From the NCBI GenBank assembly GCA_963739455.1, contig CAVUAK010000003.1:192001-256000 (forward strand): a stretch of DNA of 64,000 nt, read 5' to 3'. Shown in pieces: positions 27,101 through 30,100 of this stretch. Within the stretch, counting starts at the first letter, position 1. Each line of letters starts with the position of its first letter. This stretch comes from an uncultured Gemmatimonadales bacterium. Its GTDB lineage: Bacteria; Gemmatimonadota; Gemmatimonadetes; Gemmatimonadales; GWC2-71-9. A program made the position numbers.

Positions 27101-30100
27101 CGCCTGCCTGACGCCGCGCCTGGAGACATGAATCAAATGGCGATGCTCACGTTCGAACGAAAGTATCGAGTCCGTGGCGGGACCCTGATTGGCGGCGATC
27201 TGTTCGACTTCTGGATCGGGCCATTCTACGTCGGGTTCTTTGGTGTCACGGCCATCTTCTTCGCCGTCACCGGCACGCTCCTGCTGGTATGGGGCGCCGC
27301 AATGGGACCCACCTGGAACCTGTGGCGCATCAGCATCGCGCCGCCCGACCTGAGTTACGGCCTGGGCATGGCACCGCTGGCGAAGGGCGGGCTCTGGCAA
27401 CTGGTCACCGTCTGCGCCATCGGCGCCTTCTCATCCTGGGCACTCAGGCAGGCGGAGATCGCCCGCAAGCTCGGCATGGGCCTGCACATTTCGTGGGCCT
27501 TCAGCGCCGCGATCCTGGCGTACGTGACGCTGGTGTTCATCCGGCCGGTGCTGCTGGGCGCGTGGGGACATGGCTTCCCGTACGGCATCTTCAGTCACCT
27601 CGACTGGGTGTCGAACACGGGATACCAGTACCTGCACTTCCACTACAACCCCGCACACATGATCGCGGTGACGTTCTTCTTCACCAACTGCCTGGCGCTG
27701 GCCATGCATGGCTCCCTGATCCTCTCGGTGACGAACCCGAAGAAGGGTGAGCCGGTCAAGACGAGCGAGCACGAGAACGTGTTCTTCCGCGATTTCCTCG
27801 GCTATTCCATCGGGGCAATCGGCATCCACCGGCTCGGCACCTTCCTCGCCATGAGCGCCGCCATCTGGAGCGCGATCTGCATCGTGATCTCCGGGCCGCT
27901 GTGGACGAAGGGATGGCCGGAGTGGTGGAGCTGGTGGCTCAACCTGCCCATCTGGAAGTGAGGCGCCCCGGCCATGCTTGAATACCAGAACATCTTCACG
28001 CGGGTCCAGGTGCGCACCGCGCCCGACCCGGGGCTGCCGATCGACCTCTCGACCGGTGCCCGCTATGGCAAGGGGACGTTCAACTACTGGATCGGCAAGA
28101 TCGGCGATGCGCAGATCGGGCCCATCTATCTCGGATGGAGCGGGATCGCCTCGATCATCTTCGGCTTCTTCGCCATCGAGATCATCGGGCTCAACTTCCT
28201 GGCGCAGGTGCACTGGAGCCCGATCCAGTTCATCCGGCAGCTGCCGTGGCTGGCGCTCGAGCCGCCGCCGCCACAGTTCGGCACGCACCTCTTCCCGCCG
28301 CTGCAGCAGGGCGGGTGGTACCTGCTCGCCGGCGGGTTCCTCTCGGCCGCAATCCTGCTCTGGTGGGTGCGCACCTACCTGCGCGCGCGGGCCCTCGGAC
28401 TGGGGACGCACCTCGCGTGGGCCTTTGCGTCGGCGATCTTCCTCTACTCCACCTTCTTCTTCCAGCCGCTGCTCGTCGGCAGCTGGAGCGAGATGGTGCC
28501 GTTCGGGATCTTCGCCCACCTCGACTGGACCGCGGCATTCTCGATCCGGTACGGGAACCTCTACTACAACCCGTTCCACGCGCTCTCGATCGCGTTCCTC
28601 TACGGCTCGGCGGTGCTCTTCGCCATGCACGGGGCCACGATCCTCGCGGTGAGCCGGGTGGGTGGCGAGCGGGAGATCGAGCAGATCACCGATCGCGGCA
28701 CCGCGGCCGAGCGCGCGGCGCTCTTCTGGCGCTGGACGATGGGCTGGAACGCCACGATGGAGTCGATTCATCGCTGGGCCTGGTGGTTCGCCGTGCTGAC
28801 GACCTTCACCGGCGGGCTCGGTATCCTGCTCACCGGCACCGTGGTGGACAACTGGTATCTCTGGGGCCAGAAGCACGGCCTGGTGGCCGACTACCCGGCA
28901 CAGAATCCGGCCGCCGCCGCTGACATGGAGAAGCTGCGCGGGCAGTACGCGGGTGTGCAGCCGTCAGGCTTCCCGGGCGTCGGCATCGACGACACGATCC
29001 CGGTCGTCATCGTGGCGGAGCAGATCTACGAAAGCGTGACGAAGACGGGACGCGTGGTGACCCAGGCGATCCTCTTCGACGTGGCACAGGCCACTATCGT
29101 CGCCGATTCGAAGGCGCAGCTCGACGAGATCGGCAAGGTGCTCTCCGAGCATCCCGAGCTGACGTTCGTCATCGAGGGCCACACCGACAACACCGGCGAT
29201 CCAGCCGGTAACCAGTCGCTCTCGGAGCAGCGTGCCAGTGCGGTGCGCGACTACCTGATCACGAACTACCAGGTCCTGCCCGGCAGGCTGTCGACGGCGG
29301 GATACGGGGCGTCGCGACCGGTCGCGTCGAATGATTCGCCGGGTGGGCGCGCACACAACAGGCGCGTCGAGCTCGTCACCGGGAGCCAGCCATGACACCC
29401 ATCGTTCCAGGCGCCGCGCGGCTGCTGGTGGCCGGCGCCTGCGTCCTCGTGGTTACCGGCTGCCAGCCGGGCAAGAAGGAATCGGTGCAGCGCGGCTATC
29501 GTGGCACCGCCATGGAGGAGATCTACGACAAGTCGGACCTCGCGAAGAAGGTGGCGGAGGTGGCGGCACGCATTCCCGAGCCGATTGCCCCGGCGGGTCC
29601 ACCGACGGCCGGCCCGTCACCATGGAAGAACGTGCAGGTGCTTACCGACGTAAGTCCGGGCGAGCTTACCCGCACCATGCTGGCCATGAGCACCTGGGTG
29701 GCCGGCACGGGCAACTGTGGCTACTGCCACAACCTTGCCGACATGTCCGCGGATACACTCGCCGGCGGGAAGCCGATCTACACCAAGCTGACCGCGCGCC
29801 GGATGCTGCGCATGGTGCGGGACATCAACGGCAACTACGAGGCGCACGTCAAGAACACCGGCGTCACCTGCTATACCTGCCACCTCGGGCAGCCGGTACC
29901 GAAGACCACGTGGGTGTACAACGGCAACCCGAACCAGGTGGAGCGGTACTTCCTCGACCGGTCGGCGGTGCGGGTACAGACGCACCAGGTTGCGGCCAGC
30001 AATGACAACCGGTCGTCGGTGAAGCAGACCGAGTTCACGTACGCCGTGATGATGAAGATCTCGACCGGGCTCGGGGTGTCGTGCAGCGAGTGCCACAACA

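What a model noticed while it worked through the whole genome (the two positions that open the first line are those of the whole stretch)
27974..29395. Reaction-centre M subunit (PufM) fused to a periplasmic OmpA-like peptidoglycan-binding domain
pufM encodes a 473-aa protein: a normal type-II reaction-centre M subunit (res 1-~335), a linker, and a C-terminal OmpA_C-like peptidoglycan-binding domain (res ~345-470) with the peptidoglycan-contact motif intact. As the C-terminus of M is periplasmic, the reaction centre is predicted to be tethered to the cell wall; the solved Gemmatimonas complexes lack this domain. On a PufM tree the fused form fills the deepest, most diverse branches and the short form of cultured Gemmatimonas is nested among them, so tethering looks ancestral and repeatedly lost.
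Evidence so far: pfam.tsv: Photo_RC + OmpA above gathering cut on g03561. PDB phmmer: res 1-357 match G. phototrophica RC-M 7o0u_M (367 aa, E 2e-187); C-terminal 133 aa alone match OprF/OmpA/Pal/MotB C-domains (5u1h E 4e-23). Not an assembly error: 48 of the 120 best-scoring protein clusters (465-613 aa, down to 55% identity) carry PF00124+PF00691. Alignment of 29 fused forms: invariant G402 H403 T404 D405, N413, L416 S417, R420, N462 R463 R464 V465. AlphaFold2: res 345-470 pLDDT 85-96, OmpA_C-type strand/helix order (RC part poorly modelled, mean pLDDT 60). Whole genomes: 6 of the 21 genomes whose pufM was read out are fused (G000, G092, G243, G397, G630, G610; calls 35, 44). Tree of the RC core of the 120 [...]
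(Added by a program. Inside this text positions count along the whole contig: contig position 192,001 is position 1 of the stretch shown here. "Call 12" and the like, gene names such as g00115 and contig names such as C1 are that model's own, and its searches are not shown. The text may have been shortened before it was handed on; [...] marks where a part breaks off. The agent that wrote the report below was given it as the finding of a first reader that could run no searches.)

Follow-up and report, generated by a model that had tools for sequence, protein, structure and literature searches.

The report
Photosynthetic reaction centre with cell-wall anchor
In many uncultured Gemmatimonadota bacteria the M subunit of the photosynthetic reaction centre carries an extra, well-conserved domain of the kind that grips the cell wall, so the light-harvesting machine is probably fastened to the wall, a design that seems to have arisen several times in unrelated phototrophs but has never been tested.

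Summary
Confirmed. Window 27974-29395 (+) encodes one 473-aa protein: an intact type-II reaction-centre M subunit plus an OmpA_C domain (pLDDT 94; D405/R420 align with the diaminopimelate-binding pair of A. baumannii OmpA). It is no artefact: 10 of 44 Gemmatimonadales pufM genes carry it, dN/dS is 0.04-0.15 in close pairs, and the stop overlaps the pufC start. The fusion is already in print as three doubtful gene models (PMC12650329). A peptidoglycan anchor was also proposed for the Gloeobacter PsaB extension (PMC11565984). New here: it is real and selected. It was most likely gained once, at or below the base of the clade holding cultured Gemmatimonas, then lost many times; a clean deletion and a decayed copy were seen. 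The deepest Gemmatimonadota lineages are short, so 'ancestral to all' is unproven. Separate OmpA fusions sit on Burkholderiales PufC (110 of 120 long PufC, a selected set) and on a coiled-coil PufC. Best reading: a periplasmic tether of the reaction centre to peptidoglycan (about 0.6; binding is inferred). Against: a short linker, possible cleavage, and cultured strains do without it. The scan's earlier notes held nothing on this fusion. New variant of a known kind.

The parts
27974..29395 (+). pufM-ompA: 473-aa fusion of reaction-centre M subunit and OmpA_C domain
27974..28888 (+). M core, residues 1-305. H182, H202, H219, E234, W252 and H266 are present (their roles as pigment, iron and quinone ligands are recalled from Rhodobacter numbering)
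   Evidence: sequence, alignment to 7o0u_M
28889..28978 (+). Gemmatimonadota periplasmic extension, residues 306-335. The D-S site that is O-glycosylated in G. phototrophica (Ser331) reads S-G here
   Evidence: alignment; PMC8849296 passages
28979..29005 (+). short linker, residues 336-344 (group A mean about 10 aa; group B about 25, group C about 34)
29006..29380 (+). OmpA_C-type peptidoglycan-binding domain, residues 345-469
   Evidence: Pfam, PDB sequence search, AlphaFold2 of residues 340-473, mean pLDDT 93.8, Foldseek rmsd 0.9-1.9 A to OprF and A. baumannii OmpA C-domains
29186..29188 (+). Asp405, equivalent to A. baumannii OmpA Asp271 (diaminopimelate contact)
   Evidence: ungapped alignment to 3td3; role of Asp271 from PMC5974059 passage; numbering offset counted by hand
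29231..29233 (+). Arg420, equivalent to A. baumannii OmpA Arg286
26374..26505 (+). pufB (LH beta)
   Evidence: Pfam LHC, E 1.1e-11
26534..26695 (+). second LH alpha gene, probably pufA2 (outer ring); the Pfam hit is below the cut-off
   Evidence: Pfam LHC 21.1 bits, cut-off 23; pufA2 described in PMC12817894
26791..27006 (+). pufA1 (LH1 alpha)
   Evidence: Pfam LHC, E 2.8e-13
27128..27961 (+). pufL
   Evidence: Pfam Photo_RC
29392..30651 (+). pufC, tetraheme-type cytochrome with a long Pro/Ala/Gly tail and no OmpA domain; its start overlaps the pufM stop
31857..32599 (-). split H subunit: puhA1 (32396-32599) and puhA2 (31857-32399), as in cultured Gemmatimonas
   Evidence: Pfam PRCH/PRC; PMC8849296

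Best explanation
The gene encodes a working type-II reaction-centre M subunit whose periplasmic C-terminus continues into a folded OmpA_C domain. The domain stays attached and binds the diaminopimelate of peptidoglycan stem peptides non-covalently through D405/R420. This fixes the large RC-light-harvesting complex, sitting in the cytoplasmic membrane, to the cell wall. Likely uses are to limit drift of the complexes, or to keep the membrane from bulging away from the wall. SHOWN: one ORF, intact core ligands, fold, motif, purifying selection, wide occurrence, repeated loss. FROM ESTABLISHED KNOWLEDGE: the M C-terminus is periplasmic; OmpA_C domains bind diaminopimelate-type peptidoglycan. INFERRED: that the domain is retained on the mature complex, reaches the wall and binds it, and what that is for. 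History: one gain from a free, about 420-aa OmpA-family protein of the kind found in Gemmatimonadota, at or below the base of the clade that holds the cultured-type short forms, followed by many losses (about 0.7 for this part).
For: Fold and motif. Of 63 distinct domain-bearing PufM sequences, 62 keep the D..R pair although the three groups are only about 33-60% identical to the window's domain. dN/dS of the domain is 0.039-0.149 in six close pairs and 0.21-0.34 in four distant pairs. G. phototrophica M is modelled to at least Ser331, with an O-glycan. The genome has MurE with the DNPR motif (diaminopimelate specificity, recalled) and dapF. All fused groups share A365 (62/62; G in 99% of 109 free relatives), R425 (62/62; 39% of free) and a P-V junction, and monophyly of the fused domains is not rejected (AU p 0.26). 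Losses: P0110 keeps both flanks of P0035 but lacks the domain and nests among fused forms (100/91*); P0018 is a decayed copy inside group A. Separate OmpA_C fusions to periplasm-facing reaction-centre subunits exist on Burkholderiales PufC, on an 890-aa PufC with a long repetitive spacer (P0346) and on Gloeobacter PsaB (7f4v, E 1e-12).
Against: No experiment shows binding or retention. The linker in the window's group is only about 10 aa beyond residue 335, so reach to the wall is doubtful unless the wall lies close; I could not measure this. Most pufM genes lack the domain (34 of 44), including both solved Gemmatimonas complexes, so it is dispensable. The Gloeobacter extension was not seen in the cryo-EM map. 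In 61 of 110 PufC fusions a G[FY]HS motif stands where the binding Asp is expected. G. aurantiaca was described as lacking diaminopimelate in its envelope (recalled; not found), and dapF is frameshifted in this assembly. The maximum-likelihood domain tree joins group A with the free family (89/87, unstarred) rather than with groups B+C. No source on internal membranes in Gemmatimonas was found.
Confidence: 0.6

Rival explanations
1. The domain stays on M but works as a protein module (docking on the cytochrome or antenna, dimerising two complexes, or recruiting a periplasmic partner) rather than binding the wall.
For: Very short linker in group A. Fusion-specific invariant residues A365 and R425 lie outside the classical motif. 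Gemmatimonas complexes use extra periplasmic stabilisers such as RC-S. Many PufC fusions lack the expected Asp.
Against: D405, R420 and the NRRV motif are kept in 62 of 63 sequences across deep divergence. Linker length varies from about 10 to 34 aa between groups, which fits a tether better than a fixed dock.
Confidence: 0.17
2. The fusion is made as one chain but cut. The domain then acts alone in the periplasm, or only holds M in place during assembly.
For: Roseiflexus PufLM is reported to be processed and 60% of RC-S is removed. The Gloeobacter extension is missing from the map.
Against: No conserved cleavage motif is visible in the linkers (by eye). The Gloeobacter extension was reportedly detected by mass spectrometry in purified PSI.
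Confidence: 0.13
3. On history only: the domain was gained more than once or moved by recombination between photosynthesis gene clusters, so the patchy pattern is not purely one gain and many losses.
For: Group A clusters weakly with the free family and B+C are starred without it. Group A sits inside B on the PufM and PufL trees but outside on the PufC tree. One genus holds both a fused and a very divergent short pufM, which points to horizontal transfer.
Against: Shared derived residues and junction in all three groups; same fusion point; monophyly not rejected; direct deletion and decay intermediates.
Confidence: 0.25
4. Inaccurate gene model, read-through or neutral passenger (the doubt raised in PMC12650329).
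For: This assembly has frameshift errors elsewhere (dapF, Pal). The laid contigs did not visibly bridge the junction in the rows shown.
Against: 62 distinct sequences from many assemblies; dN/dS far below 1; the stop overlaps the pufC start in 16 of 17 fused loci; no close donor in the genome.
Confidence: 0.03

Closest known systems
PufM-OmpA and PufC-OmpA fusions noted in PMC12650329 (Biomolecules 2025; A0A935WGR1, A0A925CT08, A0A924J507)
   Same: The same architecture; all three PufM rows are Gemmatimonadota, 465 or 504 aa. Seven neighbourhood rows show OmpA;CytoC_RC in Betaproteobacteria/Burkholderiales.
   Different: The paper gives three sentences, calls the fusions rare and possibly wrong gene models, and the word peptidoglycan does not occur in it. 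It has no motif, selection or history analysis in the parts read. Its text says N-terminal for PufC and its legend C-terminal; in the sequences seen here the domain is C-terminal.
Gloeobacter violaceus photosystem I PsaB with a 155-aa C-terminal extension (PDB 7f4v)
   Same: A reaction-centre core subunit whose C-terminus carries an OmpA_C-like domain; it was hypothesised to anchor PSI to peptidoglycan in a thylakoid-free cell.
   Different: Type I, oxygenic, another phylum, reported for two species. An independent origin is inferred from the different host protein; its domain was not in my trees.
Gemmatimonas phototrophica / G. groenlandica RC-dLH M subunit (7o0u, 9h19)
   Same: Core and extension to residue ~335, two pufA genes, split puhA.
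   Different: They end at 367 and 392 aa without the domain. Short forms have low-complexity tails rich in D-S/T motifs (124 of 134). The Ser331 glycosylation site is changed in the window's protein.
OmpA_C peptidoglycan-binding domains of inner-membrane machines and envelope proteins (MotB, TagL, Pal, OprF, A. baumannii OmpA)
   Same: Fold (rmsd 0.9-1.9 A for the top matches) and the D/R pair. MotB and TagL anchor inner-membrane complexes to the wall (recalled; the 4b62 entry title calls it the T6SS cell wall anchor).
   Different: Here the cargo is a photosynthetic reaction centre with no known force to resist, and the linker is much shorter than MotB's (recalled).

Membership tests
Type-II reaction-centre M subunit (PufM) | Photo_RC domain over the five-helix core | tested here: met
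   Pfam 323.8 bits; 7o0u_M E 2.2e-187
Type-II reaction-centre M subunit (PufM) | Pigment, iron and quinone ligands H182, H202, H219, E234, W252, H266 | tested here: met
   read; roles recalled
Type-II reaction-centre M subunit (PufM) | Place in a pufBA-L-M-C operon within a photosynthesis gene cluster | tested here: met
Type-II reaction-centre M subunit (PufM) | Assembles into a photoactive complex | not testable with these tools
   no culture or protein data
OmpA_C-like peptidoglycan-binding domain | PF00691 above the gathering score | tested here: met
   79.4 bits against 27.2
OmpA_C-like peptidoglycan-binding domain | Mixed beta/alpha OmpA_C fold | tested here: met
   AlphaFold2 pLDDT 93.8; Foldseek top hits 5u1h, 3td3, 3td5
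OmpA_C-like peptidoglycan-binding domain | Asp and Arg 15 residues apart that contact diaminopimelate | tested here: met
   D405/R420 align without gaps to 3td3
OmpA_C-like peptidoglycan-binding domain | Periplasmic location | tested here: inconclusive
   follows from M topology and the modelled, glycosylated Ser331 of 7o0u; not shown for this protein
OmpA_C-like peptidoglycan-binding domain | Diaminopimelate-type peptidoglycan in the host | tested here: inconclusive
   MurE with DNPR and dapF present, dapF frameshifted in the assembly; a recalled report of no diaminopimelate in G. aurantiaca could not be found
OmpA_C-like peptidoglycan-binding domain | Binds peptidoglycan | not testable with these tools
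   needs a binding assay
Outer-membrane OmpA/OprF porins | N-terminal beta-barrel and signal peptide | tested here: not met
   the N-terminal part is the RC M core

The most novel reading that the evidence does not exclude
Anchoring the reaction centre to the cell wall is a recurring design of phototrophs that keep their photosystems in the cytoplasmic membrane. OmpA_C domains were recruited independently at least four times: to PufM in Gemmatimonadota, to PufC in Burkholderiales, to a PufC with a long spacer, and to PsaB in Gloeobacter. In Gemmatimonadota the anchor was an early adaptation after the photosynthesis genes arrived by horizontal transfer, and it was later traded many times for a glycosylated low-complexity tail.
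Probability: 0.35. Interest if true: 0.8.

Novelty: new variant of a known kind. Interest (0 to 1): 0.58.

Why it matters
No photosynthetic complex has been shown to be fastened to peptidoglycan in the papers I could search. The one standing proposal, for Gloeobacter PsaB, rests on a region not seen in the structure. Selected, motif-intact fusions on different subunits in different phyla turn an oddity into a testable pattern. The small soluble domain can be assayed directly, and named species with the PufC version exist (Rivibacter subsaxonicus, Variovorax sp. GT1P44). It also means the two solved Gemmatimonas complexes show the derived, shortened M subunit, and that natural with/without pairs exist among close relatives.

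Tried and rejected
1) A single-sequence fold of residues 303-473 was poor (pLDDT 49); the alignment-based fold replaced it. 2) Complex prediction of the domain with PufC gave no answer (score 0.18 against a mark of 0.32) and is not used either way. 3) Sequencing runs held at most 23% of the words. The laid contigs were fragmentary, from relatives, and showed neither a bridge over the junction nor expression in the rows displayed (701 pieces not shown); no habitat claim is made. 4) Misassembly from the genome's own OmpA genes was rejected. 5) One late gain without losses and one single loss were both rejected. 6) No OmpA domain was found on any of 88 Gemmatimonadota PufC read from loci (eight minus-strand loci were skipped and five had no usable pufC). 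7) No other wall-binding domain was found on the 21 representative hits with a Photo_RC part that I scanned, out of 150 listed. 8) Searches for a source on internal membranes or diaminopimelate in Gemmatimonas gave nothing. 9) The promoter/terminator scan found nothing above chance. 10) The scan's earlier notes held nothing on this fusion. 11) The pufA1 query was off frame, so its column is not used. Trees used LG+G4 without the mixture model, on representatives (89 rows from 197 distinct Gemmatimonadota sequences plus 8 outgroups; 56 rows for the AU tests).

Full report
OBSERVATION. Window 27974-29395 (+) translates to 473 residues without a stop. Pfam gives Photo_RC at 51-303 and OmpA at 367-463, both far above cut-off. 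Residues 1-357 match the G. phototrophica M chain 7o0u_M (367 aa) and 1-336 match 9h19_M (392 aa). Residues 340-473 match the OprF, Capnocytophaga and Acinetobacter OmpA C-domains best. The gene lies in pufB-pufA2-pufA1-pufL-pufM-pufC, with bch genes upstream and a split puhA downstream on the other strand. This is the layout described for cultured Gemmatimonas (PMC8849296 and PMC12817894, passages). The pufM stop overlaps the pufC start, here and in 16 of 17 fused and 55 of 71 short loci, so no separate ompA gene has been read through.

NOT AN ARTEFACT. 48 of the 120 best clusters carry both domains, as do 15 of the 80 best GTDB loci; both sets are enriched by the full-length query. Evenly drawn samples give 6 of 21 pufM-bearing genomes in the phylum (401 searched), 10 of 44 in the order (401 searched) and 4 of 7 in the family (401 searched). 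These samples overlap, and in the order sample one short and one fused gene run off their contigs. By coded genus the fusion is in g81 5/5, g7 2/2, g70 1/1, g1 1/2, g58 1/15, g51 0/8, g84 0/4 and five others 0/7. The genome's four other OmpA-domain genes are at most 40% identical. Nei-Gojobori dN/dS for the domain is 0.039-0.149 in six close pairs (core 0.005-0.091) and 0.21-0.34 in four distant pairs.

THE DOMAIN. AlphaFold2 with a 110-row alignment models residues 340-473 at mean pLDDT 93.8. Foldseek ranks OprF 5u1h and A. baumannii OmpA 3td3/3td4/3td5, including the diaminopimelate complexes, at rmsd 0.9-1.9 A. D405 and R420 align without gaps to the A. baumannii pair that PMC5974059 (one passage) names as Asp271 and Arg286, binding diaminopimelate. 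I picked fused sequences with a pattern that requires this pair, so their invariance is partly circular. A profile search of all 222 rows added only one sequence, P0018, whose motif has decayed; 62 of 63 distinct domain-bearing sequences therefore keep it. The fused forms fall into three groups: A (the window's; 18 sequences), B (27) and C (17), with about 10, 25 and 34 residues between position 335 and the domain. G. phototrophica M is modelled with an O-glycan at Ser331 (PMC8849296, passages), which fits a periplasmic C-terminus. The genome has MurE with the DNPR motif (specificity recalled) and dapF, the latter frameshifted in this assembly.

HISTORY. On a PufM-core tree rooted on proteobacterial sequences (89 rows) Gemmatimonadota form one clade (96/86*) and the fused/unfused state changes 13 times. 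One clade of fused forms is rejected (AU p 3e-12), and so is one clade of the Gemmatimonadaceae-type short forms (p 3e-47). Two cases give the direction. P0110 keeps the linker and the long tail of P0035 but lacks the domain between them, and it nests among fused forms (100/91*). P0018 is a decayed copy inside group A. All fused domains belong with a family of free, about 420-aa OmpA proteins, several named as Gemmatimonadota (96/92*). All share A365 (free: G, 99%), R425 (free: 39%) and a P-V junction. Against a single gain, the best domain tree joins A with the free family (89/87) and B+C without A (99/98*), though monophyly is not rejected (p 0.26). The root is unsettled. Short-form lineages of families f7 and f1 are sister to group C on PufM (97/83*), outside all fused forms on PufC (96/95*), and unresolved on PufL; PufM does not reject the PufC arrangement (p 0.36). 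One genus holds both a fused and a divergent short gene, so these are gene-cluster histories, not species histories. Most likely there was one gain at or below the base of the clade holding the cultured-type short forms (for example L085, 367 aa), then roughly a dozen losses.

PARALLEL FUSIONS. A search limited to PufC proteins longer than 441 aa returned 643 hits; 110 of the 120 listed carry an OmpA domain. The fused ones named by a source are Burkholderiales/Betaproteobacteria. This set was selected for length and gives no frequency. The domain is C-terminal and forms its own clade (100/97*, 11 rows). Its motif reads G[FY]AD in 37, G[FY]HS in 61, GYHD in 6, GHTD in 1 and was unclassified in 5. 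P0346 (890 aa; 3 cluster members) joins PufC to a canonical OmpA domain through a long repetitive, probably coiled-coil spacer. By eye its cytochrome resembles one named Thiohalocapsa; purple sulfur bacteria have internal membranes (recalled), so it may not fit the 'no internal membranes' idea. The PDB search also hit photosystem I PsaB 7f4v (872 aa, residues 753-864, E 1e-12).

WHAT IS IN PRINT. [quoted passage not shown] PMC11565984 (passages) recalls that the 155-aa PsaB extension of G. violaceus was detected by mass spectrometry, was proposed to anchor PSI to peptidoglycan, and was absent from the structure. PMC12817894 and PMC7844134 have no occurrence of OmpA, and PMC8779627 none of peptidoglycan (term searches). 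PMC10214105 and PMC7203096 were seen as passages only; the latter remarks that the wall of Gemmatimonas lies in places well away from the membrane. Searches gave no paper that tests or analyses the PufM fusion; subscription journals are mostly missing from the library.

MECHANISM. The best reading is a retained periplasmic domain that binds the wall and holds the roughly 800-kDa complex (size) in place, as OmpA_C domains do for other inner-membrane machines (recalled). I give it 0.6. A protein-docking role (0.17) and cleavage (0.13) are the main rivals; an artefact is excluded (0.03). The weak points are the short linker in this group, the frequent loss, the unresolved Gloeobacter extension, and a recalled but unverified report that G. 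aurantiaca lacks diaminopimelate.

VERDICT. The feature is real and under selection. It was noted once as doubtful and has a conceptual precedent, so it is a new variant of a known kind. Its interest lies in the repeated recruitment of the same wall-binding domain to reaction centres and in how directly this can be tested. Interest 0.58.

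Noticed in passing
short-form PufM tails, e.g. L044, L052, L090: Short forms end in Pro/Ala-rich tails with on average three D-(S/T)-hydrophobic motifs (124 of 134 have at least one). 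This is the Bacteroidota-type O-glycosylation motif (recalled), so the tail may be a glycosylated remnant.
   Followed up: partly
window 28964-28969: The D-S site glycosylated in G. phototrophica M (Ser331) reads S-G here. The P-D-[ST]-[FY]-P site is kept in 10 of 18 group A, 26 of 27 group B, 16 of 17 group C and 99 of 134 short forms.
   Followed up: partly
window 29389-29395: The frequent C-terminal Pro of Gemmatimonadota PufM goes with the CCATGA overlap with the pufC start.
   Followed up: yes
window 30340-30651 (pufC tail): PufC runs 124 residues beyond its last heme motif, the longest of the 88 read, mostly Pro/Ala/Gly/Thr.
   Followed up: no
window 30677-30710: A perfect inverted repeat with A and T runs on its sides lies between pufC and the convergent gene; it looks like a two-way terminator by eye but the scan did not list it.
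   Followed up: no
G000:C2:41608-42313 and C2:441987-442244: dapF and a Pal-like gene are split by frameshifts, probably indel errors of the assembly.
   Followed up: no
L099 (G202), L121 (G548), L098 (G078): Genomes of the window's own genus and family carry a quite different, short pufM (about 73% core identity), which suggests separate acquisitions of the photosynthesis genes within one genus.
   Followed up: partly
P0346 (with P0531, P0532): An 890-aa PufC with about 370 residues of repetitive, probably coiled-coil spacer before a canonical OmpA domain.
   Followed up: partly
L008, L009, L059, L066: Two pufB-like hits lie upstream of pufL in these group B loci, against one in most others.
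   Followed up: no
L071: The record title names Candidatus Kuenenia stuttgartiensis, but its pufM, pufL and pufC nest among Gemmatimonadaceae; probably a mislabelled record.
   Followed up: no
L013/L057 and L051/L054: Two genomes each returned two pufM loci on different contigs: duplicate clusters or mixed bins.
   Followed up: no
P0360, P0361, P0363: Single partial proteins that join Photo_RC and CytoC_RC parts; probably frameshifted assemblies across the M/C overlap.
   Followed up: no
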